From positions 36,872,607 through 36,936,606 of the forward strand of contig NC_057732.1 in assembly GCF_004010195.1 (NCBI RefSeq): a stretch of DNA of 64,000 nucleotides, read 5' to 3'. Both the position numbers and the translations under genes were made by a program. Under the pieces are notes generated by a model that was given only the letters and a program-made list of their open reading frames with translations, was not told where the DNA came from and made no database searches. The DNA is from Chiloscyllium plagiosum (lineage: Eukaryota). Shown here piece by piece: positions 5,581 through 60,103 of this stretch. Within the stretch, counting starts at the first letter, position 1, and each line of letters begins with the position of its first letter.

Positions 5581-7389
5581 GATTCAATTTTTCTACTTTA
5601 TTTCCCTACAACAAATGTTAAGTTACAGTGTCCTGCTTTCTGTCTCCCTCATAGAAAAATACAGAAACACAGAAGATAGGACCAGGAGTAGGCCATTCAA
5701 CCCCTCGAGCTTGATCTGCCATTCAATATGATCATGGTTGATCATCAAGTTCAGTACCCTATTCTTGCCCTCCCCCCCATATCCCTTGATCCCTTTAGCC
5801 ACAAGGACTATATCTACCTCCTTCTTGAAAACACAATATCTTGACCTCAACCACATTCTGTGGTAACAAATTCCATAGGCCCACCACTCTCTAGTTGAAG
5901 GAAGCGCTCCTCATCTCAGTCCTAAAATACTTCCCCCTTACACTTGGACTATGACTCCTTGGTTCTGGACTCGCCCACCATTGGAAACCCACTTCCTCTG
6001 TCTAACTGATTTAGTTTGTTAGCATTTTACAGGTTTCTATGAGATTCCCCCTCATTCTTCTAAACTCCAATGAATATAATGCTAATTAACTCAATCTCTC
6101 CTCTCCTGCCATCCCAGGAATCAAACTGGTAAAGGTTCGCTGCACTTTCCTCCCTTTTTCAATAAAGGAGCTACATTAGCTATTTTACAATCTAAAGAAA
6201 CTTTCCCAAAACTGAATAAGTTTTAGTAAACTAAAACTAATGTTTGAGCTACTTCACTAGCTAGTTCTTCTGAGTTCCTCAGACCATTAAAATCCAATAG
6301 CATCTGGAGACCTGTCAACGCACAGTCCCAACAATTTGCTCAATATTACTTCCCTTGTCATTGTAATTTTCTTGAGTTCCTCCCTCCCTTTCAATTCCTG
6401 ATTTACATCTATTTCTGGGATGTTATTTGTTTCTTCTCTAGTGAAGACTAACACAAAATATCTGTTCAATTCATTTGCCATCTCTTTATCCACCATTACT
6501 AATTCCCTCTGTCATTTTCTTTAAGATCAACACTTACTTTGTTCAGTCTTTTTAAAAAATATTTGAAGAAACTTTTCCAATCTGTTTTTTATATTTTTAG
6601 ATAACTTACTCTAATTTTTATTCCTTATTAATCTTTTCATTGTCCTTTTTTTTTAATATTCTGTCCAATCTTCTGACCTGCCATCTATCTTTGTGTAATT
6701 ATCTGTCTTTCTTTGAATTTGATACGATCTTTGACGTTTTTAGTTAACTATGTATAGTATGTCTGTCCTTTAGAAATTTTCTTATTTGCTGGAATACATC
6801 TGATCTATGCTTTCTGGAATATCCACTTCAACATTTGCCGCTACAACTCTATTGACCTATTTCCTTAATCTAAATTTTCAGTTTATTTTCACTTGCTCTG
6901 CTTTCAGGCCCTCATAATTGCTCTTGTTTATGTTCAAATTAGTAGTCTTGGACCCACTCCGCTTCCGTAAACACTTTGTTAAATGCAATCATGATATGGT
7001 CACTGCTACCCTGTGGCTCTTTCACTGTGGGGTTAGTAATTCATCCTATCTCAATGATCAAAACTGTGACTAGTATAGCCTACTCTCTGGTAGGCACCAG
7101 TACATGCTGGTCTAAGAAACTAGCCTGAAAACATTTGATGAATTTTTCATTTAGACTACTTTGCTCCAAATTTGATTTTACCAGTCTAAATGTAGGCTTA
7201 AATCCACCATGATATTTGCTGTAACCTTTTGACAAGCTCCCGTTATTTATTCCTTGATACCCTGTCCTATCATATGGTTACTGTTAGGGGGCCTATAGCA
7301 ACTCACACAAGTGATCTCTTGCTTTTATCATTCCTCATCTCTACCCAGACTGCTTTTATATTTTGGTTTCCTGAATATAGGTTATTCCT

Positions 7390-7592
7390 GAAAAAACGCA
7401 GCAGGTCAGGCAGCATCCAAGGAACAGGAGAATCAACGTTTCGGGCATAAGCCCTTCTTAATCATTCCTGAAGAAGGGCTTATGCCCGAAACGTCGATTC
7501 TCCTGTTCCTTGGATGCTGCCTGACCTGCTGCACTTTTCCAGCAACACATTTTCAGCTCTGATCTCCAGCATCTGCAGACCTCACTTTCTCT
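7390..7592. mobile_element. Self-inverted Penelope-derived short element with minimal hammerhead and a 14-bp TSD
   Basis: TSD TATAGGTTATTCCT at 7376-7389 and 7593-7606; inverted arms ~7391-7459 and ~7471-7539. Confidence 0.8.
7466..7497 (+). ncRNA. Minimal hammerhead ribozyme motif (Penelope type)
   Basis: CTGAAGA-A-GGGC(TTAT)GCCC-GAAAC-GTC-GA: complete catalytic core, stem II, palindromic loopless stem III (ACGT) and GUC triplet. Confidence 0.65.
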
Positions 7593-8558
7593 TATAGGTT
7601 ATTCCTCCCTATTGTGATAATACAATCTTTAATTAACAGAGACACTCCTCCACCTTTTCCTGCTGCCTTCCTTCCTAAATGTCATAATATTCAGGTCCCT
7701 TCAATATTCAGGCCCCAATCTACAATAAGTAAGTATTATCTTACCTCAGAAATGGCAATTAGATCATACTTATTTATCTCAATTTGTCCTACAAGTCCTT
7801 TTGTTTTGAGTTCTGTATGCTTTTAAATACAGTGCTTTAAGTTTTGTCCTATTATTACTTTTGTAACTTCCAGTCTTAGCTCCTGATTTGCTTTTAGATC
7901 TGCTTTCTCTGATCCTTTTGGTCATCATCTGTTTACGGCTTTACACATTAATTCCTTCCTCTTTTGCCTTTTCTCTCCTCATCCATATAAACTTATGTTC
8001 CTTTTTCAAGTTTGTTTTCTTGCATGTCGGTCCTGATGAGTACAACATGAAAATCTTTGACATTCTGTCTCTTTTTATCAATGAATAAGTTCTGTATTAG
8101 CAGGCAGCTATTTAGAAAAATGTATTTTAAGGAAGGTCAAGACCAAGCCATCATAGTGCAAGCATCAGACAAATTAACGATTTGTCCTTCATTGTAGCCA
8201 GATGAATGAGGTTCCCTATTTATAAGGAATAACTTGCCTAATAGCCCCTTTCATTACCATCATTATTGTGGTATGGCAAAGAATGGCTAATTTGTCCACT
8301 AAAAGGACACACAAACAGGAAGGAGATAAAGTACCAGAATACCTATTTTAATCATGTTGGTTTCAGGGTAACTGTGAGCCAGGACTAGTGGGAATTCTCC
8401 TACTCTTTGAAATAGTGCCCTGGAGGCTTTACAGTCCAGCTGAGTGGCCAGGCAGGATTGCATCCAAAAGATGATAATACTGATAATGCAACATTCCTTT
8501 AGCTTGGCACTAAGGTGTGAGTCTAGTTTATGTGCTCAAGCTTATTGAATGACCCTAC

Positions 8559-14750: not shown

Positions 14751-15418
14751 ACACAAGTAGTTGATGCATACCACAATTGTTTAAAATCCATTCAAGAGAT
14801 TCCAGTTTGTAACTTAGGATGTTGTAAAATATTTTACAGCCAATTAAATACTTTTGAAATGTAGTATTGTGCTAATGTAGAATTGTATCAATGTATGCAA
14901 GTTCCAAAAATAACAATGAGATAGATAAACAGATAACTTGCTTTTAGATATTAATTAAGGAATACACATATGGCAAACAAACATGGACACTTCTTCAAAG
15001 TAGTAGCATGGGGCCTGTTCCACCCGCCTGAGAGGCCAAACAAGGTTTTGGTTTCATATCTTATCCAAAAAAAGAGTGCCTAAGTGTCTAAATGCCTATG
15101 ACAGTGACGTTTTTCCCCAATATAACACTGCAAGCGTATGGATAGATTTTGTGTTCAAGTCTGTTGTTGGAACCTGATCTACATACATTCCTGATGAAAG
15201 ACTTATGCCGAAAATTTTAACTCTCTTGCTCCTCGGATGCTGCCTGACCTGCTGTGCTTTTCCCAGTGCCGCACTTTTCAACTCCCACAAAATTCAGGGG
15301 CAAGAGTGCCAAATTCCAATAGTGACTGAATTCCAAAGTACTTGTTTGGCTATAAAGTCATTTGGAAAGTCCTGAGGTTGTGAGAGTGCTACATAAATGC
15401 AAGTCTTGCTGAAAGCTG

Positions 15419-15836: not shown

Positions 15837-16167
15837 AGACAGCACAAAATATGCAAGAAGAAATATCTGATAAAGGAAAAGCAACAATCATGGGTGAACT
15901 TAATTTACTTATAAACAACAAAATAAGATAGATGATGGTAGTTTAGATGAGGAGTTCAAGAATGCATTTGAGACACTTTCTTAAAGCAACACATTTTGGA
16001 ACTGACCCAGAGAGCATGTTATGGATTTATGTTGTGTTCAGCAAAAGTGAGGATTGCAGATGCTGGAAACCAGAGTTTAGATCAGAGTGGTGCTGGAAAA
16101 GTACAGCAGGTCAGGCAGCATCTGAGCAGGAAAAGTTTTGGCAAAAGCCCTTCATCAGAAACATAAT

Positions 16168-25006: not shown

Positions 25007-26814
25007 CTATCAGACAGCAAGGAAATAAATGGCAAATTGCTCTTACTTTGGGTTTATTTTCATGCTCAATGAAATGAAGGCAATTTTTTTTTAAAAATCA
25101 CATTGAAATAGCACCTTTAACTTAGTAAAATACCTCCATGTGCTTCACAGGAAAGATTATCAGACAAGGTAATTGTTATGAGACATTCAGATTACCGGAA
25201 ATCTGGTCAAAGAGATGGATTGGAAGGAGATTTTTGAAGGAGGAGAGGTAGAGGGTTAGGGAAGTTATTTCAGAATTTAAGACCAGGGCAGCTGAAAACA
25301 ACCAGCAATACTAAAGAAGTGAACAGTGGAGTTGAAGAATGAAATTATTTTCATGTCTTTGAACCCACTGAAAGCTTTCCTTTTCTGTCCACAAATGCTG
25401 AATGACCAAAGCACTGCCAGAAATATCCTTTTCTGAAGTCTGCCTGATGGCGACAGAAAAATAGTTGTCAAGTATTGGACTGAAACTGCTCCAAATTCAA
25501 ACACACAACATTCTTATTCACTTCTTTGAAAATCCTTCATTTGTTAAATAATAACTTGTTTTCAGCAAATGTTCAGTAATGGTATCCCAAATTGAAGATA
25601 AATGGTCAATCTATATAAAACTTCAGTATGACCACAATTGGAGTCTATTATGCTCTACACATTAGAGGGGAAATTGAAGCAATAAATGGAAGAGATCACA
25701 GATTCAAGGATATGCTGTCTGGTGTGAGGAAATGCAAATATGGATAATGCCTTCAAAGAACTGGGGCTCGTCCTTTTGAATCAAGTTGTGTATGGTGTGA
25801 TTGATGGATATGTTTAGTGTTATTAAGGAATGTGATACAGGTAGATAGAAACAGACTGTTTCCAGTGATTGAAGATATCTTGAATGAGGATACATAGATT
25901 TAAGATTAAATGTAGGAGATTTACCACAGTGAGCAGGTGGATTCTTTTTATACAGAACATTAGTTATTGAAGCAGAGACCATATCAATATTTAAGAACAG
26001 ATTAATTCTGCTGGTTGAAGAAGGATGAGATAAAATTATATGAGAACATAGGGTTTTCATGTGGAGGATATACACAAATGACGACTGGATCATGAATTCC
26101 AGGCTAAAACAAAGAATTGCGGATAGTGGAGATCTGAAGCCAAATAGAAATCGATGGCGAAACTCAGCAAGTCTGGCAGCACCTGTGGGGAAAAACCAGA
26201 GTTAATATTTTGAGTCTGGTAACTGTTATTCATCAAGTTCTAATGCTGTCAGACCTGCTGAGTTACGCCTGCAATTTCTGTTTTTATATCATGGATTCTA
26301 AGATTTTGTTCAGGACTAACATTCGAGCCATCTAGTTTACCCTCTCTTTTCTTGAAAAAATGTGACCAGAACTCTGACTTCTTTTCGCATTTACAACCAC
26401 CAGGTTCCATCAACTTAGCCACCAGAAATTCTTTACATTTCTTCAGAACTAATTCAAGCTACACATGTTAAGATAGAACAGATAGAAACTTGGCATTAAA
26501 TGTTTGCTCATGACCAGATTATAAACCCTAAAAGTTAATTAACTGTTACTTTCAGAACCCATAGAAATAAAACATAGTGTGAACCACATTGTCACACAGA
26601 TGGTAGTGGTTCAGAAAGGAGACTCACATTCTGAGAACAAATAGGAATGAGGAATAAATGCTGGTCTTGCCATATCTAAGAGGAAGGAAAGAATGGGGTG
26701 TTAAATAATATCAGTGAATCCGTTGCCGTCAGTTATAAGGAGAAAGTGAATCTGTTTCCATTTTTGATAACACACTATAAGTAACCAATCAATTTACTCA
26801 ATTAGATTCAAGTC

Positions 26815-32845: not shown

Positions 32846-33505
32846 GCCAGGGTGAGGAAGCAAGGGCTGGAACAGTTCTGAAACAGAATGAGCAAGTTAA
32901 CGAGAAGACTTCAAACCAAAGACAGACACGTACACAGCAAAAGCAATATGCAGAGTCTTTAACATTGTTAGATACCAAAACACAAAACAACATATTTAGG
33001 ATATCCTCTTAGACAATGGAAAAGATGGGAAGAGGAGGGGAGAGAATTAAGGGATGAGGGATTGGGGAGAAGGTGACTGAGGGAGGGAGGGAGTAGGTGA
33101 GAGGGGAATAGAAGGAAAGCATAAAAAAGGAACAAAAGTTAAGGTTCACAAGAAGTGTTAACTTCACTATACAAGATGAAAATGCAAATTAAATTGGAAC
33201 AGAAACAAACTATTCAGCCTCTCAAGCCTCCTCCACCATTTAGTAGGGTCATGGCTGATCTGTTTGTGTTTTGAATTCCACATTCTTATCTACTCCCAAT
33301 AACGCTTGATTCCCCTAACAATATTCTATTCATCTCTGTCTTAAAAATATTCAATAATCCTGTCTCCATGATCTTCTGAGACACAGAATTCCAAAGTTGC
33401 ACAACCTCTGGGGCAAACAGTTTCTACTCATCTCTGTCCTGAAAGGGTGATCCCTAATTTTAAGATCGTGCTCCCTATTTCTGGACTCTGTCATAAGCAG
33501 AAACA

Positions 33506-33698
33506 GATGGAAGTGGGTACTGCAGATGCTGGAGATTAGAGTCAAGATTAGAGTGGCACTGGAAACGCACAGTAAGTCAGGTAGCAACCGAGGAGCAGGA
33601 AATTCCTGATGAAGGACTTTTACCCAAAACGTTGATTTATATGCTCCTTGGATGCTGCCCGACCTGCTGTGCTTTTCTAGCATTACTCTAATCTTGAC
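33506..33698. mobile_element. Self-inverted Penelope-derived short element with decayed hammerhead, inserted in a CR1 tail
   Basis: Imperfect 14-bp TSD CATAAGCAGAAACA (33492-33505) / CATAAATAGAAACA (33699-33712); CTGATGA core at 33606. Confidence 0.7.
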
Positions 33699-36127
33699 CA
33701 TAAATAGAAACATCTTTTCCATGTCCTTTTAGCTGAGACCATTCAAGAATCTTATAAACTTCAATCAAGTCACCTCACTTTCTTTTAAACTCCAGTGGCA
33801 ATAAGTCCAGCGAATCCAAAAGGTGTGGAACACCATACAAGTAGTGGAACACCATACAAGGTAGAAGCAGAAGTAGGCCATTCAGCCCATCAAGCCTGTT
33901 CTGCTAATAAATGAGATCATAGTTGATCTAATAATCTCTAATTCCACTTTCTTATCAAGTCCATATAACCCTTGATTCCCATACTGATTAAAAATCTTGA
34001 ATATACTTAACAAAGCAGCCTTGGCAGCCCTCTGCAGTAAAGAGTTTCGCAGCTTCACTACCCTCTGAGAGAAGAAATTTCTCCTTCATCTTAAAACACA
34101 TGGTTCTTTATTCTGAGACCATGTCCTCTGGTCCTAGACTGTCCCACAAGGGGAAACAACTTTCTGCATCTACTCCGTCAATTCCCCATAGGATCTTATT
34201 TCAGGAAAATTGCTTTTCATTCTTCTAAATTCCAATTACAAACAGGGCCAACTTACTCCTCATGAGAACATCTCTCCATGCCTGGTATTATCCTAGTAAA
34301 CCATCTCCAGACTACCTCCAAAACCTGTGTATCATTCCCTGGATAAGGGAACCATAACTGTTCACACTAGTCCCATTGTAGTCTGACTAATGCATTGTGT
34401 AGTTTCAGTAAACCCTTCTGATATTTAGACTCCATTCCCTTTGAAATAAAGGTCATTTGTCTACTCTATTACCTGTTGAACTTGGATGCTGGCATTTTGT
34501 GATTAACAAACAACAATTCACAAATCCTTCTGTTCCATAGTTTTCTGCAGTCTTTTTCCATTTAAATAATAATGTAGGCAACATAGCCAATTTAAGCAGA
34601 TAATCTGTTTTAGTGATATTTGTTGGATAAATATTGGCCAAAATACTAACAGAATTCCTCTACGCTTCAAAATAGTGCCATGAAATTTTATATGAGTTCA
34701 CCTGAGATGGCATTCTAGGAATACAGCTGTCCCTCAGCTGAACAGCTCATCCAAAAGATAGCATTTCTAACAATTATGTAACAAAAAAAAATCACTCTCA
34801 TAAATCTACTATTGGCTGTTGGACTAGTCCTGGAATAGCTTGGAACGTGAATAATTCTGGTACTGCATGGTGTGAGGAGCTCCAATAGATATGTACCTGC
34901 TTTTCAAACTAAAATAATGCAGACTGATCTGACTGTTTGGAGATCTAGCATTGAGAACCATGGAGCAAACATAGCCCAAATTTGATCAAAAAAAAAGCAC
35001 TGAAGGTGCTAGAAATCTGAAACAAAAACACAAAGGTGAAGAAACTGAGCAGGTCCGGCAGCATCTGTGGAGAGAGAAACAGAGTCAATGTTTTGGGTCG
35101 AGTGACCGTTCTTCAAAAAGGTTCTACACAATCCAATATCCAAGCAGCTCCTTTGGGAAGGTGCTCAGATGAGTCTTCATTCACCATCATCCATGGATGG
35201 ACACAAAGGTCATTGTCCTCCTGATACTATGGCTGTGAAACCCAAGTGATTTATTTCTAAGATATACCATCTTACTGGAAGATCCTACTCATTATATGGA
35301 TGGATGGCTGCACAAACATGAGCACCTTCCAGGAAGCAGATGCCCTGAGCACAAAGGTGACAATGCTCATATGGCAACCAGGCAGGACAGGGCATGACAT
35401 TAATTGCCGAATGCTCATCTACTGAAGAGGGCTCTCTACTCCCAATACATGTATTGTCAAAAATGACAGGGTGGCTAAGCGGAAACATTTTAAACATGGG
35501 GGTCAGTGCTCTACCCCCATAGTAACTTGAATGGTGGTAGAAATTTATTTCATAAGTAAACACATATGAAGCACTTTTTTTAAACATTGTATATTCCTAA
35601 TAATATTAGCACATGGGCCTAAACAATGTCATCACCCACTATCTCTGGAGATAGTCACTAAATTTCATTGGATAACACTGATTTATACAGTGAGAGACAA
35701 AGCTTTTCCATGGCTCTGGTGAGGCACAGCACCTTGGAGAGATTCCAATCACTGTTAATATCCATGATGCATTCTGTATCTCTAAACACAATGTGCTGTA
35801 TAATCATTTGACAACACCAGCTGTGTCTTAAATTATAGATAAAGTTTGATGTCTATACAAGAACAACAGAAAACAATTGCTACCATGTTAATTAATTTCT
35901 TTAGAAAAACGCAGAGTAAACATCTGGTCTGTGACAGGATTGAGAATAATAAACATCATCAAATGCTCCATGTTTTGGAACTGCAGGGGCTTTGGAGATA
36001 AAGAGTATTGTAAGGGAATAGGGCCCAAGGATGAGAAAGTAGCATGGAAGGACAGTGAGAGATACATCACTTCAGCCTGATTCACCTTGAATCTATTTTC
36101 AGAACACCCCTTCAGGAAAATTGTTCT

Positions 36128-43100: not shown

Positions 43101-44109
43101 AATGACTACATTCCATGGTAAAAATAAAATAGGTAGACTCGGACACAGAAGACATGGAAATAGATACATATACGCAGAGGGTAGACTGATCCAGAAACAC
43201 ACAGAGAACAGAAACATAGATGGCATGCAGATAGATAATATACAAAGACATGCAAAACCTTAAAAAACACACAACACACAGACATATTGTCGCTTTGGAG
43301 ACAGCATTGAACATGCAGAGGACACACGGACAAACACAAAACTTTTCAGATAGTGAAATGATAAGTGAGTTAGCAAGAATTCATTTTCCATGTGAGACCT
43401 TCTCATTATTTGTCTGCCACCCTACAAAATAGAAAATAAATATGGAACCAAGTGCCAAGAATTGGGCCAATATTGCTCTGGCGTCAATTTTGTGAAATGA
43501 AGTGATCTTCTCCCCAAAATTTCCTTTCCTCCTGTTCTTTGTCCTTTGCCTCCTTACAATTAAGGGGTACAGGGTTAAAATGGAGAGGATCTGTGCCATT
43601 CCTTCATGACACACATTGGTCCTTGCACCATCTTTGGTCACATTCGTGGCAGCAAAGTCGGAGGTGAAACAGGAGTAGTCTGACTGGACAAAGTTTAACC
43701 ATCCTGAGCCCAAAGTAACAGGTGCTTCAGCTTAAATAATGTTCAAAGTCCTCATTCATACTGCAGCCATCATCAGTCATTCAAAGGAAGGCACTTAGGT
43801 AGAAATGAAGAGGTGGGGTCCTCCTGCAGATCACAATGCATTTCCACTTTAAGAAGCAGCGAACTGACCTAATTTTAAGATAATATGCCTAAGGATTAGC
43901 TTCAGCTAAAACACACTGAGTCAGCTGGGAGACCGATCAGATGTCCTTCTGACGTTGATATCAGTCAGATCATCGTCAAGAGATCTCCACGTGGACACAC
44001 AGATCCCTTCCTCAAACAGACATACACATCCACATGGACACAGAGATTCATGCAGATAGTAGTATATACAAATGCAATCTTTCAGTCACAGAACATACAC
44101 GTACAGAGT

Positions 44110-46487
44110 AGATGTTATGGGGCCTTTAACTTTCCAAATATTGACTGGAAATACTCTAGATCGCATACTTTAGATGGGTCAGTTTTTGTCCAATGTGTGG
44201 AGGAGGGTTTCCTGACACAGTACGTAGGCAAGCCAACAAGGGGCGAGGCCACATTGGATTTGGTACTGGGTAATGAACCTGGCCAGGTGTTAGATTTGGA
44301 GGTAAGTGAGCACTTTGGTGATAGTGACCACAATTCTGTTATATTTACTTTAGCAATGGAAAGGAATAGGTATATAATGCAGGGCAAGAGTTATTGCTGG
44401 GGGAAAGGCAATTATGTTGCGATTAGGCAAGACTTAGGATCGATAGGATGGGGAAGGAAACTGCAGGGGATGGGCACAATTGAAATGTCGAGCTTATTCA
44501 AGGAACAGCTACTGCATGTCCTTGATAAGTACGTATCTGTCAGGCAGGGAGGAAGCGGTCGAGCAAAGGAGCTATGGTTTACAAAAGAAGTTGAATCTCT
44601 TGTCAAGAAGAAGAAGGCAGCTTATGTTAGGATGAGGTGTGAAGGCTCAATTAGGGTATTTGAGAGTGACAAGTCAGCTAGGAAAGATCTAATAAGAGAG
44701 CTAAGAAGAGCCAGGAGGGGAAATGAGATGTCATTGGTAGATAGGATCAAGGAAAACCCTAAAGCTTTCTATAGGTATATTAGGAATAAAAAAATGACTA
44801 AAGAAAGATTAGGGTCAATCAAGGATATTAGTGGGAATTTGTGCATGGAGTCCAAGGAGATAGAGGAAGCACAAAATGAATATTTTTCATCAAAAAAAGA
44901 CAATGTTGATGAGAAGAATACTGAGATACAACGAGGAGGTGTGAGCAATTCTGGAAAGTCTGAAAATAGATAAGTCCCCTGGGCCGGATGGGATTTATCC
45001 TAGGATTCTCTGGGAAGCCAGGGAGGAGATTGCAGAGCCTTTGACTTTGATCTTTATGTCATCATTGTCTACAGGAATAGTGCCAGAAGACTGGAGGATG
45101 GCAAATATTGTCCCCTTGTTCAAGAAAGGAAGTAGAGACAACCCTGGTAATTATAGACCAGTGGGCCTTACTTCAGTTGTGAGTAAAGTATTGGAAAAGG
45201 TTATAAGAGACAGGATTTATAATTACCTAGAGAAGAATAAGTTGTTTAGGGATAGTCAATACCATTTTGTGAAGGGTAGGTCGTGACTCACAAACCTTAC
45301 TGAGTTCTTTGAGATGGTGACCAAAGATATGGATGAGGGTAAAACATTTGATGTGGTGTATGTGGATTTCAGTAAGTTGTTTGATAAGGTTCCCCATGGT
45401 AAGCTATTGCACAAAATACAGAGGCTTGGGATTGAGTGTGATTTAGTGGTTTGGATCAGAAATTGGCGAGCTGAAAGACGACAGAGGTGGTGATTAATGG
45501 GAAATGTTCATTCTGGAGTTCAGTTACTAGTGGTGTATCGCAAGGATCTCTTTTGGGGCCACTGCTGTTTGTCATTTTTATAAATGATCTAGATAAGGGC
45601 GTAGAATGATGGGTTGGTAAATTGCAGATGACATTAAGGTCGGTGGAGTTGTGGATAACGCTGAAGGATGTTGCAGGTTACAGAGGGACGCAGATAATTG
45701 CAGAGCTGGGCTGAGAGTTGGTCAATGAAGTTTAATGTGGAAAGGTGTGAGGCGAGGAGCAAAAGTAATAAAGAGTTCTGGGCTAATGGTAAGATTCTTG
45801 GTAGTGTAGATGAGCAGAGAGATTTCATTGTCCACATACATAGATCCCTGAAAGCTGCCATCCAGGTTGATAGGGTTGTTAAGAACGCATATAGTGTGTT
45901 AGCTTTTATTGATAGAAGGATTGAGTTTTGAAGCCACGAGATCATGCTGCAGCTGTACAAAATTCTTGTGTGGCCACACTTAGAATATTGTGTACAGTTC
46001 TGGTCACCGCATTATAGAAACGATGTGGAAGCTTTGGAAAGGGTTCACAGGAGATTTACTAAAATGTTGCCTAGTACGGAGGGAAGGTCTTATGAGAAAA
46101 AGCTGAGGTTCTTGAGGCTGTTTTCATTAGAGAAGAAAGTTGAGAGGAGACTTAATTGACACATATAGGATAATCAAAGGGTTAGATAGGGTGGACAGTG
46201 ACAGCCTTTATCCTTGGATGGTGATGGCCTGCAAGAAAGGACGGAGCTTTAAATTGAGGGGTGATAGATATAGGACAGATGTCAGAGGTAGTTTCTTTAC
46301 TAAGAGAATAGTAGGGGCATGGAACGCACTGTCGGCAACAGTAGTAGACTCGCCAACTTTAAGGGCATTTAACTGGTCATTGGATAAACATATGGATGAA
46401 AATGGAATAGTGTAGGATAGATTCCACAGGTCAGCGCAACATCGAGGGCCAAAGGGCCTGTAATGCGCTGTAATGTTCTATGTTCTG
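44110..46487 (+). mobile_element. CR1 LINE, long ORF2 remnant (endonuclease C-terminus, RT, 3' UTR)
   Basis: FNFPNIDW, PTRGEATLDLVL, SDHN, GNYRPVGLTS and PHLEYCVQFWSPHY motifs; multiple frameshifts. Confidence 0.93.
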
Positions 46488-48934
46488 TAGTCTCAGATAC
46501 AGAATGCCACACCTACACAAATACGTTCATACATCCTTTTTTTAAACACAGACATTGCCCTGATTTAGGGGGTCATTTTCATCAAGCATCTGGTAATCCG
46601 TTCCAATACTCCTCATGTCATTCAAGCCAAAAACAATTTAATAACAGGTTCTGTGAAACATAATGTGGCATTTTATCTTATTAAAAATGCTATATAAGTA
46701 CAAGTTAAAGCCGGTCACCCTCTTGGTAATTTTGGACTGAATATTCCCAAGATCTCTTGGAATGTTGACATTTTAACTCTGGCAAAGGGTCACTCAAAGC
46801 AAAATGTTAATTGTTTTTCACACCGCAGATGCTGCCAAACTTGCTAAGTTTTGTAAGTTGCATACAAATTTTCAGTGTGAGCATGTCTGAAATAATTTCT
46901 CCTTGGTTTTAAGCAGTAACTCATTCACTTTACATCATACTCCTTCCCTGCTAACACACAGCAGAGAGACAGCTTGAGTACAACACAAAGATTGGTTGGC
47001 ATTCTTGGTGGATTCTGAAACCCTCACTTGCACTATTCAATCTTGTATCATGTACCTGAGCTCCTCAATAATCTAGGCCCAACTAGATTATTTGAGATAT
47101 CGAATAACTTCAGTATAAGGTGGAACTTTTAGTGCAGTCATTTCCTTTTGAACATGTTCACTTAACAAATAATTAAACTTCTTAGAGAAACAAAGCTTAC
47201 TAAATTATTTGTTCTTTATGCCTTTAGACTTTGAAATCCCAAAGAGAGAAATACACTTCTTGAAAAATCAGTTCTGTTTGTGAAAGAGTTTAAGATGCTC
47301 ATGACTCCCTGTAGCATCATATTTTAAGAGTATTTTATTTTAGAGATGAGTGTGTGTTGCTGGAAAAGCACAGCAGGTCAGACAGCGTCCCAGGAGCAAT
47401 TAAAATATCAGAAGTTTGGAACTTGAAAAACAGTAATATTCGTCATGCAGTGAGGGAGACAATTTGAGACTGAACAGCACCAAGACTCTCTTGAATTAAG
47501 GAAAGCCTGTGTGATAACAATCCTCTGGGTAACTGAGCTGCATGTGTTAAAAAGCTGGAAGCACCAGGGCAGCAGATAAAATAAATCTATAGCCAGCAAA
47601 TGAAAAGCAGCTCTCTCTCTCTCCACATGAGAAAGAGAAAAAAAACACAAGTCTAAAAGAATGAATTCCTTCAAGAAAGACCTAAGTCTACCAAACCAAC
47701 TATCAAAATAAAAACAATCACTGCTTTATAGACAATAATGTGGCATCTATGCTAAAAAAAAAATCAAAAGGTAATTTAACATGCCATCGAAATATAGACT
47801 GCTGATCTTCAGGACTTTGCATATGCTATTTTCCTTGAACCCCTACAAGTTAAGCCATCTATTATAATCATGAATGAGCATGTAGGTTTTTGAGACATAG
47901 TTTAAGTTGCGTAGTAGTAAATTAGAAAACCTTTATTTTCTCTGGCCTTTTTTTGTGTTAATTATGAAACCTGGTACAAATTGCTTATGTCCTGAATGAC
48001 AGTTGATGACTGTTACTTCACTGGTTAAGCCCAGCTATAGTGTCAAATTTCAAGCAGCACAATTTAGGAAAGATTTCAAGACCGAGTACCAATAGTGCTT
48101 AGAAGAGTTAAGAGTCTGGGATTGTTCTCCTTACAAAAAAGGTGGTTAACAGATTCAATAATTATTTTCAAAAAGAAACTGAATTAATACTTGGAAGACA
48201 AAGATTTTGCAGAGTTAATAAGAAAGAATGAGGAAAATGGAAATAATTGGAAAGATCATCCAAAGCACAGGCACAGGGAATGTTCTAGAAATCCATTTAT
48301 CTTTATTTGCTTCAGTGTAAACTTGACTTCAAAATAACTAGGTCAGAGATTGTGTTCAAGCATTTCAAGACTTGAGCTGACTCAGTTATGAGAAGGAATT
48401 TTCAAACAGGGAAATCAATCGATTACCAAATTTTAAACACATCACTCAAAAATTTAGATTGCAACTTGTACTGATCCTCCTGTTACGTTTTCAGATGCCT
48501 CCATTTCAATCCAAGTGTTTGCAGTTGATGTGGAGAAGTTATTCATACAGGAGATCATCAGTGAAAATGTGCTAATCGATACTGAAAAGTTAGGAAAAGG
48601 CATCAGACTTTAATATTGCAAGGGAAAACTTTGCAGGCTCTACACAGGGATAACAATCAATTTACTGGCAAGCTCCCACAAACAATAACCAGATAACCTT
48701 TTCTTAATTATGACAAATATTGTTCAGGACACCCAGAAAACCCATACAATCTTCTTCAGAATAGTTCGTGAAATCTTCCACATCCACCTCAGAGGCCAGG
48801 TAAAACTTCAGTTTAACATTCCAAATAATGGAATCTCAAAATGCAACATTCCCTTAGCACTGCACTGGAAACAGCTGCTATCCCCCAGCCTCCGGAGTGC
48901 AATCTGAACCCTTAAACAGCCAACTTGTGTCAAA

Positions 48935-49410
48935 AACAGGAGTATAAATTCCCACGTGGTTGAAGATGCCCTCCAATGCATCTCATCCACATCCTGCACC
49001 TCTGCCCTCGAACTCCACCCCTCCAGCTGCACCAAGGATATATTTCCCTCCCCTCCCCTATCAGCTTTCCGTAGAGACCACTCCCTCCGCGACNNNNNNN
49101 NNNNNNNNNNNNNNNNNNNNNNNNNNNNNNNNNNNNNNNNNNNNNNNNNNNNNNNNNNNNNNNNNNNNNNNNNNNNNNNNNNNNNNNNNNNNNNNNNNNN
49201 NNNNNNNNNNNNNNNNNNNNNNNNNNNNNNNNNNNNNNNNNNNNNNNNNNNNTCTCACCACTCCCAAGGCTCCCAGCTTCATTCCTGATGAAGGGCTTTT
49301 TCCTGAAACATCGATTTTCCTGCTCCTCGGATGCTGCCTGACCTGCTGCTCTTTTCCAGGACCACTTTAATCTAGAATCTAATCTCCAGCATCTGCAGTA
49401 CCCACTTCTG
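48935..49410 (+). mobile_element. Penelope-like retroelement remnant (ORF fragment, assembly gap 49094-49252, 3' end with CpG-decayed hammerhead)
   Basis: FPSPPLSAFRRDHSLRD resembles the linker of vertebrate Penelope ORFs; CTGATGAAGGGC...GAAACATC at 49285-49312. Confidence 0.75.
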
Positions 49411-49928
49411 CCCTGCCGTATAACTTTTCCTGGCTACAATCAATTCTGAAGGGTCACTGCAACATCAACTCTGCTTTTTTGTCCACAGATACTGCTGGAC
49501 CTGCTGAGTTTTCCAGCAATTTCTGTTTTTGTTTGGATTTCCAGCATCTGCAGTTCTATTCTTAAGAAAAAAAAAAAGATCTGGACAGCTCTTTCATAGA
49601 AGCACAGAGATGAGCTGAATGACTTCCTTCTATCCTGTAGGATTCTACTGTAACAATAGAGCAAAGTAATCATACTAGCAGAATCAATGAGTGCTCAGTA
49701 CACCAGGACACTCCTAGCAATTACAGCCAGCCTAGCTCATTGCTGGAACATTATCAGGCGATCCCTTAGAAGAGCACAGGATTCTACTCAGCCACACCTA
49801 TTTGTCCGCAGCTAACCTTGCATACCAATTGCATGGTGGGATATAATAGTTCAACTTTATTACAATGCTCTGTGAAGGCTTGAGTTAGAAAAAGGATCTA
49901 AGCCTTACTCTTACCAACCTGAACATAG

Positions 49929-50148
49929 TCAAAGAAGTGTGGTGCTGGAAAAGCACAGCAGGTCAGGTAGTATCAGAGGAGCAAAAGACTGGGCATAAGT
50001 CATTCATCAGGAATGTGCACACTCCTGATGAAGGGCTTATGCCCGAAACGTCGACTTTCCTGCTCCTCTGATGCTGCCTGACCTGCCATGCTTTTCCAGC
50101 GCCACACTTTTCAATTCGGATCTTCAGCATCTGCAGTCCTCACTTTCT
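49929..50148. mobile_element. Self-inverted Penelope-derived short element with intact minimal hammerhead core
   Basis: Imperfect TSD CCAACCTGAACATAG (49914-49928) / CCAACCTAGACATAG (50149-50163); palindrome centre GTGCAC at 50015-50020. Confidence 0.8.
50023..50054 (+). ncRNA. Minimal hammerhead ribozyme motif (Penelope type)
   Basis: CTGATGA-A-GGGC(TTAT)GCCC-GAAAC-GTC-GA. Confidence 0.65.
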
Positions 50149-51473
50149 CCAACCTAGACATAGACCTCGATTGCATATCAATTACAATGGAAAGAGCAAC
50201 GTGAGCTTTACTCATTTGGTTTTAAACTGGTGCCAGTCTTTGCTCAACCAATGACATATAATACAAAATGAACATAAATGTCAAGTTATTTCTGAAGTGG
50301 CAATATATTTCTAGTTTTATTTTTTAATATTTCAAATTTGTTTTTCTTATCACCATAAACCAGAGTTCTCAACTGGCGTTTTAACTTGGGACTTCACTTC
50401 CTTCATCTGCCATTCTTGGGTCCTTGCTATACTCACTGACGACCTGGTACACCAACAGCTCAAATTTAAAATTATCATTCTTGAAATCAAATCCCTCTAT
50501 CACCTCAAATTTCTCTCTAAAATATGCCAGCTCTATAACTCCCCAATATATTGGTACTGCAACTCTGCCAATTTCACATCCCAGATTTTAATTGCTCCAT
50601 CTCCAGCTGTAAATGTCCAAGACCAAGAATCCTTCCTTAAACCTCTCCACCTTTTTCCTTCTCTAAGCTCAACATTAACATTTTGTGGACTCTCCTTATA
50701 ACTCATGTGGCTTGATATATCAAGTAGTGCTCCTATAAAACGCATTCAGATTTTACATTTACATAATTCCTTTGGCATCACAATATAGTAGCGAAGAGGA
50801 CATTTTGATTGACTAATGAAAAAAGAACAAATTAAAGGCATTAGTGGTGACAACAAAAGGTGACTGGAGTTCAGATTGGTCAATTCATCTCTGTACACAG
50901 CTTAGTCTCCAGTTCATAGGGTAACAGCCACAGAAAGTATAAGTGGCACAAGTAAATAAAAATCACATTTTTCATCCTGAGGTTTAATATTAGGAAATGC
51001 TCTCTCTGCACTGTTCCATCAATCCCCAGCAGACACAATAAAGCTCTCTCTACACTCTTCAGACACTACCAGGACAAGTATTGCACAGGTCAGATAAAGA
51101 ATAAACTCCCTCTGGGTGGTCCTTCTAGAGTGCCACTATCCCTTTTGCAATATTTTTCCCTGAACAAACTACCTATAGTTGCTGTGGGAATTTATGCAGG
51201 CTGAACCATACCATCAGCACATGGAAAGACAAAACAGGTAATTACGTTTCTGGTGTGTAACTCTTCATTGTCTCTGCAAACCTGGTTTTAGTTTCTGGTT
51301 TCCAGAGTTTGTTTCCTGTTTAGAGTTGTATTAGCAATTTTCTACCATGTATTCATTAATGGAACTCAGTACAACCCAAAGTGACTGTATAAAAATGATT
51401 CTCACAACTCTGGAACCAGTTGGATTTATTGAAGGGCTATGAGAAACAACAAAACTCCTTAAAATCAAACTGC

Positions 51474-58673: not shown

Positions 58674-59388
58674 TTAGACAGAACAAGTGAAAAGGAAAAA
58701 AGGTGTTAATTTATTGAGGTTAATGGCAATTTGCTACTTTCCTGTTGAGTTGATTAAACTCAGTTTTCCACCCTAACTGCATATTATGCAGTGGGTAATC
58801 ATACAGCACAGGTTAAACACAGAAAATATTAAGTACAGAGTAAAGCTTCCTCCACAATCTAGGATAGAGCTGGAATATAAAGCAGACACCCAGTTTCATA
58901 GTTCATTGTGGTAAGAAGGGGAGAATTATTTTCTGACAGTCACAAATCTATGAAATTCTCTTCCCTAGAGAGTAGTGGAAGCAGGGAAACTGATTACGTT
59001 TAAAGGGAGAAGTAAATAGATTCTTGACTAAGAGAGCCAAAGGATATCATGGTTAGCAGGAAAATGAGTTAAAGCCATATGCAGAGCTATATCTTATCAA
59101 ATGGCACAGCAAACTTGATGGACCCAATATCCCACCCACTCCTAATTTGTTTGTTCATAAGTGGCTCACGAACCTTATCACAATGATTGAAATCATTCAA
59201 ATGGTTGTCCCTGCCACTTCCCTCTTAGCCCACCAAGCCAAACCTCAAACTTGCATCTTTCTTACAGCTTATCTTGTATTCTCTCCAAGATCACCTTGAC
59301 CACAAGATTACACAACCTTACCCCACCCCCACCCCCAAATCCCTGGTAACACCTAAACTGCTAACCAGCCAAACTTCTTTTCCTGATC

Positions 59389-59530
59389 AGGCGAAAGTGA
59401 GAACGGCAGATGCTGGAGATCAGAGTCAAGACAAGAGTGGTGCTGGAAAAGCACAGCAGGTCTGGCAGCATCCAAGGAGCAGGGAAAAAAAAATTAAAAA
59501 AAAAAAAACCGACGCTTCGAGCAGGAGCCC
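59389..59530 (-). mobile_element. Penelope-derived short element with a 13-bp TSD and an internal A-run expansion
   Basis: TCTTTTCCTGATC at 59376-59388 and 59531-59543; same family sequence as the 7390 and 49929 elements. Confidence 0.7.
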
Positions 59531-60103
59531 TCTTTTCCTGATCCCCATGTTAGTCCTGTTAACAGTTCCTTCTCCTCTGTTCCCAGCCTTTAAAATCCAT
59601 TATACCTTATCCCAAAAACATACCCTAGAGTCCTCTGTACTTGTATTGCTGACTTTGATCACCTTTCTCTCTCCCAAATCCCTGAACTTAGTTTTACTTC
59701 CCAAAATATGTGTCAATGTTTCTAGCAACTCAGTGTTTGAACGTCTCAAACTCGTCATAGGCCCGAACAGCCTTAAAATTTACAATGCATATGGACATTT
59801 TACATTCTCAACCTCGTTTAAATGACTCCATCACACTGCAATCAGATCCCCCCCAATAACAGTGCCCTGCCTCAGAATCCTGCATCCCTTTTTTTATTAT
59901 GCAATTGGTGTCTTTAGCTGCCAAGCACTTAGCTTTTAAAAATTTCCCCTAAGCCCTGCTACTCATCTTCAAAACCATTAAAACTACTCCTTTGACCAAA
60001 CTCTTGATTAGCCCTCCTATCTCTATTTTGACACCATCTAATGTGAAACTTTTGATAATGGTCATGTGCAAAAGGGTTACTCAAACATTCTTGCTGCTAT
60101 CTA

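What the first reader, a model, noticed from the sequence alone, without database searches (positions are those of the whole stretch)
7376..7606. Family of ~200-bp TSD-flanked, self-inverted, hammerhead-carrying Penelope mini-elements
Seen: a 203-bp insert bounded by a perfect 14-bp TSD forms a ~68-bp-arm hairpin. Its right arm holds a complete minimal hammerhead core (CUGAAGA, extra A, GGGC/GCCC stem II, GAAAC-GUC); the left arm is an antisense copy truncated inside the core. The same architecture with its own TSD recurs at 26103-26287, 33506-33698 and 49929-50148, with single-arm copies near 15185, 16043, 34990, 53335 and 59389, and the motif also ends an ORF-bearing Penelope remnant at 48935-49410. 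Known: Penelope-like elements carry minimal hammerheads with palindromic stem III that cleave as dimers, and often insert with an inverted terminal repeat. Inference: these ORF-less units were inserted whole, so they may be a distinct non-autonomous ribozyme-SINE/retrozyme-like family rather than random debris.
Basis: partly seen in the sequence, partly recalled or inferred. Interest (0 to 1): 0.72.

Follow-up and report, generated by a model that had tools for sequence, protein, structure and literature searches.

The report
Head-to-head Penelope retroelement stub insertions
These small DNA hairpins are real insertions made of two ends of an ordinary Penelope-type jumping gene joined head to head, most likely stitched together anew at each landing; only a few small lineages appear to have been re-copied with their join intact, so this is a known pattern with useful clues to how such elements insert.

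Summary
The 203-bp hairpin, its 14-bp target duplication and the hammerhead core are real; a contig of another run holds the exact empty site. It is the shortest form of the known Penelope-like (PLE) insertion: inverted tailless pseudo-LTR plus tailed pseudo-LTR. ORF-bearing copies share that layout, and minis interleave with read-through arms on a tree. This copy's centre junction occurs twice in the genome, against roughly 4x10^5 related loci. The whole-unit RNA is predicted to bury the ribozyme (32 kcal/mol). Arm ends pile up at an initiator-like A just before the hammerhead (5,559 matches, 55% with an extra G), not at the cut site (489). They are probably run-off copies of a capped RNA, primed from both target strands. 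The scan reported this reading, cap clue included, many times on other DNA. Not found in those notes: two lineages (93 and 35 copies, about 1% of their subfamily) inherit a fixed junction, mostly with their own target duplications, and lack an intact hammerhead on the tailed arm. The separate-family idea therefore fails for the bulk and holds for a small minority.

The parts
7376..7389 (+). 5' copy of the 14-bp target-site duplication
   Evidence: empty site in run X15
7390..7459 (-). inverted, tailless pseudo-LTR arm (arm positions about 9-79; lacks the first core letters)
7460..7463 (.). centre junction; this exact junction occurs twice in the genome
7464..7464 (+). arm position 2: the A of an initiator-like motif where arm ends pile up; inferred RNA 5' end
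7468..7495 (+). minimal type I hammerhead core; predicted cut after 7495
   Evidence: PMC4209133
7464..7591 (+). sense pseudo-LTR arm, 95-98% identical to the 3' pseudo-LTRs of ORF-bearing copies
7558..7591 (+). about 34-nt tail, present on one arm only in 51 of 57 sampled pairs
   Evidence: PMC8557442, PMC11167929
7593..7606 (+). 3' copy of the target-site duplication
33492..33712 (-). older head-to-head unit, tail on the left, degenerate 14-bp duplication, core not intact
49914..50163 (+). head-to-head unit with degenerate 15-bp duplication and intact core at 50025-50049
59376..59543 (-). single tailed arm with perfect 13-bp duplication
48935..49410 (+). 5'-truncated PLE remnant (ORF piece, a run of N, pseudo-LTR with core at 49285)
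26103..26287 (-). head-to-head unit of a second, more distant repeat group; no intact core; duplication at chance level
15185..15284 (+). single tailless arm, no duplication found
16043..16161 (-). single tailed arm, no duplication found

Best explanation
The unit is a single insertion of two pseudo-LTR ends of a Penelope-like retrotransposon joined head to head, and it was likely built at the landing site rather than copied from a hairpin master. Inferred steps: (1) element RNA likely starts, capped, at the A just before the hammerhead; (2) the element's endonuclease would nick both target strands about 14 bp apart; (3) each nick would prime reverse transcription at one of two internal start sites, the tail end (about position 129) and about position 95; (4) because these sites lie only 95-130 nt from the RNA 5' end, most copies would run off at the cap, often gaining a G; (5) the two cDNA ends would be joined through microhomology or a few filler bases. 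Longer arms would come from read-through RNA that holds ORF sequence upstream. The hammerhead is a passenger here: uncut RNA is the likely template. Occasionally a transcript running through an old insertion appears to serve as template, so that its junction is inherited by a small lineage.
For: Shown: target duplication and empty site. Same layout in long copies, with inverted arms of 120-700 bp whose upstream sequence matches GIY-YIG (E 2e-4, below the curated cut-off) and whose family holds an RT fragment (E 7e-4). Tail on exactly one arm in 51 of 57 pairs, tailless outer ends mostly at 90-102, exact duplications of 8-19 bp in 38 of 57, and 57 of 57 distinct inner-end combinations. Tree interleaving. 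Whole-genome counts of arms starting with two non-template letters: position 1 = 2,083, 2 = 5,559, 3 = 4,401, 7 = 884, 34 = 489, 38 = 474. G precedes position 2 in 3,039 of 5,559, against 26 of the first 100 rows at position 7 (hand count). In 4 of 30 fetched G-loci the G sits alone between the duplication and position 2 and is absent after the 3' duplication copy; 5 more use the G in a 3-base match to the target. Either arm can reach further in (tailless 28, tailed 8, within 5 nt 15 of 51). In vitro precedent: both strands cut and extended, two start sites that bound the tail, hammerhead not needed (PMC11167929).
Against: No direct RNA evidence for the start site: the single-cell poly(A) run showed no pile-up of molecule ends, though it is ill suited to this. 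The G excess is weaker in some subsets: 38 of 100 rows in the second young subfamily, 5 of 15 in the older variant, 21 of 100 at position 3. Part of the G rows can be explained by the other arm's letters (31 of 63, hand count). Position 2 is also the 5' edge of helix I, so a structural stop is not excluded. Read-through arms are numerous (16,572). A small bump at positions 32-36 in the sample (10 of 210 arm ends, 2.0 per nt against 0.8 beside it) leaves room for some cut templates. A sample of 57 cannot exclude many tiny inherited lineages.
Confidence: 0.8

Rival explanations
1. A distinct non-autonomous ribozyme-SINE or retrozyme: the hairpin unit is transcribed, self-cleaves and is copied whole.
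For: Two lineages with a fixed junction: 93 of 98 matches lie in one subfamily, and 35 matches share a second junction, 34 of them with a private mutated stretch. Own duplications of 13 bp or more in 13 of 18 and 5 of 8 fetched copies, and a 14th of the 18 on the extended fetch.
Against: These are 128 copies against 13,051 exact arms of that subfamily. The window's junction occurs twice. No separate clade. The whole-unit RNA is predicted to bury the core (-131.4 against -99.3 kcal/mol). Ends do not map to the cut site. Both lineages lack an intact core on the tailed arm.
Confidence: 0.07
2. One priming only: the cDNA folds back and copies itself, and the centre is later trimmed by palindrome instability.
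For: Arms of one insertion are closer than arms of different insertions (0.061 against 0.140; 33 pairs) and share rare variants in several copies. Perfect palindromic centres are common. Self-priming was proposed in PMC3846280.
Against: The tailless arm reaches further in than the tailed arm in 28 of 51 pairs, once by about 380 nt, which fold-back alone cannot give. The tailless end sits at the second start site. In L291 a captured 620-bp stretch is closed by a separate long tailless arm inside one 16-bp duplication. Shared variants also fit two primings on RNA of one locus.
Confidence: 0.1
3. The pile-up at position 2-3 is a reverse-transcriptase stop at the edge of the folded hammerhead (helix I), and the G is plain terminal addition, not a cap.
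For: Position 2 is the 5' edge of the 2-4 bp helix I. The G excess varies between subfamilies.
Against: The G excess is absent at position 7 (Fisher p 2e-7 on the first 100 rows of each). The site matches an initiator consensus (recalled, YYANWYY). Helix I is very weak. A start site within the pseudo-LTR is reported for other PLEs (PMC8557442 passages).
Confidence: 0.15

Closest known systems
EN+ Penelope-like element insertion unit with inverted pseudo-LTR, one-sided 30-40 bp tail and target duplication (PMC8557442 passages; Pen2a_Av in PMC3846280 passages)
   Same: Head-to-head inverted copy, tail at one end, duplication, hammerhead in the pseudo-LTR, continuum of 5' truncation.
   Different: Here the ORF-less minimal form is very common (about a third of sampled loci are pairs), and inner ends cluster at one base with an extra G, which the searches listed did not find described for PLEs.
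Poseidon from Anolis in vitro (PMC11167929, parts 1-2 of 4 read)
   Same: Two internal start sites that bound the tail, both target strands extended, uncut RNA as the main template.
   Different: That paper gives no integration product for the inverted arm; the family here has a Cys-rich linker of the Neptune/Nematis type.
Minimal hammerheads of metazoan PLEs (PMC4209133, parts 1-2 of 4 read)
   Same: Extra base before helix II, palindromic helix III, short helix I; that paper already notes pairs 100-700 bp apart on opposite strands.
   Different: Helix II is only 4 bp; in the whole-unit RNA the antisense arm is predicted to sequester the core.
Non-LTR retrozymes (10.64898/2026.07.22.740005, parts 1-2 of 5 read)
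   Same: ORF-less, pseudo-LTR-derived, hammerhead-bearing.
   Different: Retrozymes are defined as head-to-tail tandems with a hammerhead in each unit; these units are head-to-head with at most one intact core.
LINE-1 twin priming and cap-derived untemplated G (PMC4859970 passages)
   Same: Inversion attributed to priming from both target strands; extra G at full-length 5' ends.
   Different: In LINE-1 the two cDNAs cover different parts of the RNA (recalled); here they overlap and make a hairpin.

Membership tests
EN+ Penelope-like element (source family) | GIY-YIG endonuclease at the ORF 3' end, upstream of the pseudo-LTR | tested here: met
   Pfam GIY-YIG E 2e-4 and 2e-3 in 2 of the 3 endonuclease-side ORF pieces scanned, just below the curated cut-off; E 0.046
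EN+ Penelope-like element (source family) | Reverse transcriptase in the same ORF | tested here: inconclusive
   RVT_1 E 7e-4 in an internally deleted copy downstream of a pseudo-LTR (L232); no full-length copy examined, no RT tree
EN+ Penelope-like element (source family) | Pseudo-LTR with hammerhead, continuing into the ORF 5' end; partial tandems | tested here: met
EN+ Penelope-like element (source family) | Inverted 5' copy with one-sided 30-40 bp tail | tested here: met
   51 of 57 pairs; long copies
Neptune clade | Cys-rich Zn-finger-like linker between RT and EN | tested here: met
   C-x4-C-x2-C; shared with Nematis per PMC8557442
Neptune clade | RT phylogeny | not tested
   no full RT fetched
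Non-LTR retrozyme | Head-to-tail tandem units, each with a complete hammerhead | tested here: not met
   head-to-head, one intact core
Non-LTR retrozyme | Self-cleavage and circular RNA | not testable with these tools
   folding predicts the core is buried in the whole unit
SINE-like non-autonomous family (unit copied whole) | Fixed internal structure shared by many independent insertions | tested here: not met
   this junction occurs twice; 57 of 57 distinct. Met only by two other lineages of 93 and 35 copies
SINE-like non-autonomous family (unit copied whole) | Own clade apart from the autonomous partner | tested here: not met
   18 changes, shuffled mean 18.7, 216 of 500 shuffles as low; 31 minis and 25 read-through arms, 130-nt alignment with weak support
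Minimal type I hammerhead | Core letters, extra base, helix II, palindromic helix III | tested here: met
   124 cores in the sample against 3 in shuffled DNA, with alternative helix II pairs in other groups; no Rfam match at gathering score
Minimal type I hammerhead | Cleavage activity | not testable with these tools
   no assay
MITE (DNA transposon derivative) | Symmetric terminal inverted repeats and short fixed-length duplication | tested here: not met
   one-sided tail; duplications of 8-19 bp

The most novel reading that the evidence does not exclude
Penelope integration is two-ended: both target strands prime on capped, uncut RNA, and most products are strong-stop-like run-offs of the first 130 nt. 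Some of the resulting hairpins then act as secondary masters: a transcript through them is primed at the tail and yields daughter hairpins with an inherited junction, fresh target duplications and sometimes captured flank, with no working ribozyme. That is a path from insertion debris to nascent SINE-like lineages.
Probability: 0.6. Interest if true: 0.55.

Novelty: new member of a known kind. Interest (0 to 1): 0.35.

Why it matters
The steps of PLE integration after the first priming are not worked out (PMC11167929 says so). A genome with some 10^5 short insertions gives fixed coordinates to test: an RNA start, two priming sites and the joint. The inherited-junction lineages suggest that the tail region alone suffices for mobilisation in trans and that the hammerhead is dispensable in vivo, in line with the in vitro result. 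For repeat annotation: these hairpins should be filed as PLE ends, not as MITEs or a new SINE. The element at 7376 itself is ordinary.

Tried and rejected
Rfam: no match at gathering score. Pile-up at the hammerhead cut: 489 at position 34 against 474 at 38. Both counts include read-through copies with substitutions, and the leading-letter filter drops one microhomology class at 34. In the 100 listed junctions (hand count; 2,544 in all; about 18 ambiguous rows set aside) starts at 34 (13) were no higher than at 36 (16) or 30 (9-13). LTR-like strand transfer that keeps the cap G: G in 11 of 80 substitutions at position 1 against 6 of 85 at a control C (p 0.20), no support. This also shows no sizeable read-through variant with G there. 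Splice acceptor at position 2: the template has no AG there and the upstream letters vary. RNA: no RNA holder listed; run X20 reads are mostly passenger copies (91% run on into unlike sequence) and X21 laid nothing; no reads on this locus's flanks, which is no test. Pfam on window ORF pieces near 48908-49094: nothing. NCBIfam: nothing. The first arm-mapping script was spoiled by N-to-N matches and redone. Literature searches for a cap G or inherited hairpin junctions in PLEs and for shark palindromic Penelope SINEs listed nothing on point; only search listings were seen, subscription papers and repeat databases were not searchable, and the supplements of the 2026 preprint are closed.

Full report
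Observation. The unit at 7376-7606 is as described: a perfect 14-bp duplication, a 203-bp insert, 75-nt arms at 93% and a minimal hammerhead core at 7468-7492. A 484-nt contig of run X15, which carries another organism label, joins 7375 to 7593 and so holds the empty site. The other named copies are mixed. 33506 and 49929 have slightly decayed duplications beyond chance, and 59389 a perfect 13-bp one. 26103, 34990 and 53335 belong to a second, more distant group, and 26103 has no intact core and only a chance-level duplication. I number the arm from window 7463 (position 1): core at 6, predicted cut after 33, tail at about 96-129.

Abundance and source. The genome has 3.56 Gb. I fetched 160 stretches of 10 kb at round coordinates on contigs C1-C36 (arbitrary, not formally random; 1,535,706 non-N bases). 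They held 185 clusters matching the right arm, about 4.3x10^5 by extrapolation; a few hits belong to the second group. Upstream of many arms lies shared sequence of up to about 850 nt that reads as a Cys-rich linker and GIY-YIG domain. Downstream of the tail the element continues into an ORF 5' region, and one deleted copy has an RT fragment. The source is an endonuclease-positive PLE, Neptune-like by its linker; the clade was not tested by tree. Among 25 long copies fetched, 9 show an inverted arm reaching into the pseudo-LTR on the far side, with arms of 120-700 bp (several others are cut by N runs). The minis are the short end of a continuum.

Is the hairpin a mobile unit? After merging, the sample had 180 insertions, 61 pairs and 57 pairs free of N and edges (at least one counted twice). 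Of the 57, 51 have the tail on one arm only, 38 have an exact duplication of 8-19 bp, and all 57 differ in inner ends and gap. The 29 closest relatives of the window's copy also differ at the centre, and its exact junction occurs twice genome-wide. On a tree of 31 mini arms and 25 read-through arms the label is not clustered (short alignment, weak support; arms without tail or starting after position 20 were left out). The whole-unit RNA folds at -131.4 kcal/mol with the core paired; a fold that leaves the core free costs 32 kcal/mol. On the other strand the core is incomplete.

Where the arms stop. In the sample, 51 of 210 inner ends lie at positions 2-5 (12.8 per nt) against 0.8 per nt at 21-31. 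Whole-genome patterns that demand two non-template letters gave 2,083, 5,559, 4,401 and 884 for starts at 1, 2, 3 and 7, and 489 and 474 for 34 and 38; these use different downstream words and are not normalised. Read-through arms number 16,572. Before position 2 the letter is G in 3,039 of 5,559, where about 26% is expected from base composition; at position 7 it is 26 of the first 100 rows. After dropping the 50 rows that the other arm can explain, G is 32 of 50 (hand count). In 4 of 30 fetched loci the G is plainly untemplated. Contigs of two further runs show joints landing on position 2 with G or AG between. Against: 38 of 100 in a second subfamily, 5 of 15 in an older variant, 21 of 100 at position 3. 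Position 2 is the A of an initiator-like motif (consensus recalled), and an untemplated G marks capped templates in LINE-1 and SVA (PMC4859970, passages). I infer a capped RNA start. A stop at the edge of helix I remains a rival.

Mechanism. PMC11167929 (parts 1-2 of 4) shows for an anole PLE that both target strands are cut and extended, that two internal start sites bound the tail, and that hammerhead cleavage is not needed. The tailed and tailless outer ends here match those two sites. Either arm may reach further in (28, 8 and 15 of 51), and centres carry overlaps of 1-7 nt or short fillers. Two primings joined at their 3' ends explain this best; fold-back with later trimming explains the arm similarity but not the longer tailless arms. 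These steps are inferred from end products.

Exception. Rows showed repeated junctions. One occurs 98 times, 93 in a single subfamily. Of 18 fetched copies of that subfamily 13 have their own duplications of 14-18 bp, 8 share a private letter on the tailed arm only, and two pairs share 300 and 620 bp at 100% that run into captured flank. A second junction occurs 35 times, 34 with the same mutated stretch; 5 of 8 fetched have duplications of 13-16 bp. These are inherited junctions, not segmental duplications. In the first lineage the tailed arm covers only positions 57-129, and in the second its core is broken, so no intact sense hammerhead lies on the likely template. In L291 the shared stretch is closed by a long tailless arm within one 16-bp duplication, likely a second template. 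The two lineages make about 1% of 13,051 exact arms of their subfamily; I did not search for others systematically. Mobilisation in trans by pseudo-LTRs alone has precedent (PMC3846280, passages).

Comparison and verdict. The inverted copy, tail and duplication are described in PMC8557442 and PMC3846280 (passages), and opposite-strand hammerhead pairs in PMC4209133 (parts 1-2 of 4). Retrozymes are tandem by definition (10.64898/2026.07.22.740005, parts 1-2 of 5) and do not fit. The scan's earlier notes reach the same reading on this and other genomes, the cap clue included; a look-up for inherited junctions returned nothing. Those notes are not counted as support. Verdict: real feature, known kind, modest interest as a record of PLE integration.

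Noticed in passing
L221/L222 (G000:C1:26522041 and 26522265); also G000:C2:96929338-96929783: Head-to-tail repeats of a 224-bp unit (pseudo-LTR, tail and about 80 nt of ORF start) with a hammerhead in each unit; three pattern hits about 205 bp apart on C2. These fit the retrozyme definition better than the hairpins do.
   Followed up: partly
L292 (G000:C2:6919800-6922900): The far end of this insertion is followed by the reverse complement of its left flank, an inverted duplication of target DNA instead of a direct one.
   Followed up: no
L291-L294: Pairs of insertions on different contigs share 620 and 300 bp at 100%, including captured non-PLE sequence: very recent 5' transductions.
   Followed up: partly
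   Followed up: no
window 43900-44973: 357-aa open frame with a weak endonuclease-reverse transcriptase Pfam match (E 1.5e-4), probably a LINE remnant.
   Followed up: no
window 59483-59510: A-rich expansion inside the single arm at 59389.
   Followed up: no
L206:1400-1960, run X20: RNA read depth is about 25-fold higher on the pseudo-LTR than upstream, on both strands, with loose ends at position 2; this mirrors genomic copy number in passenger transcripts.
   Followed up: partly
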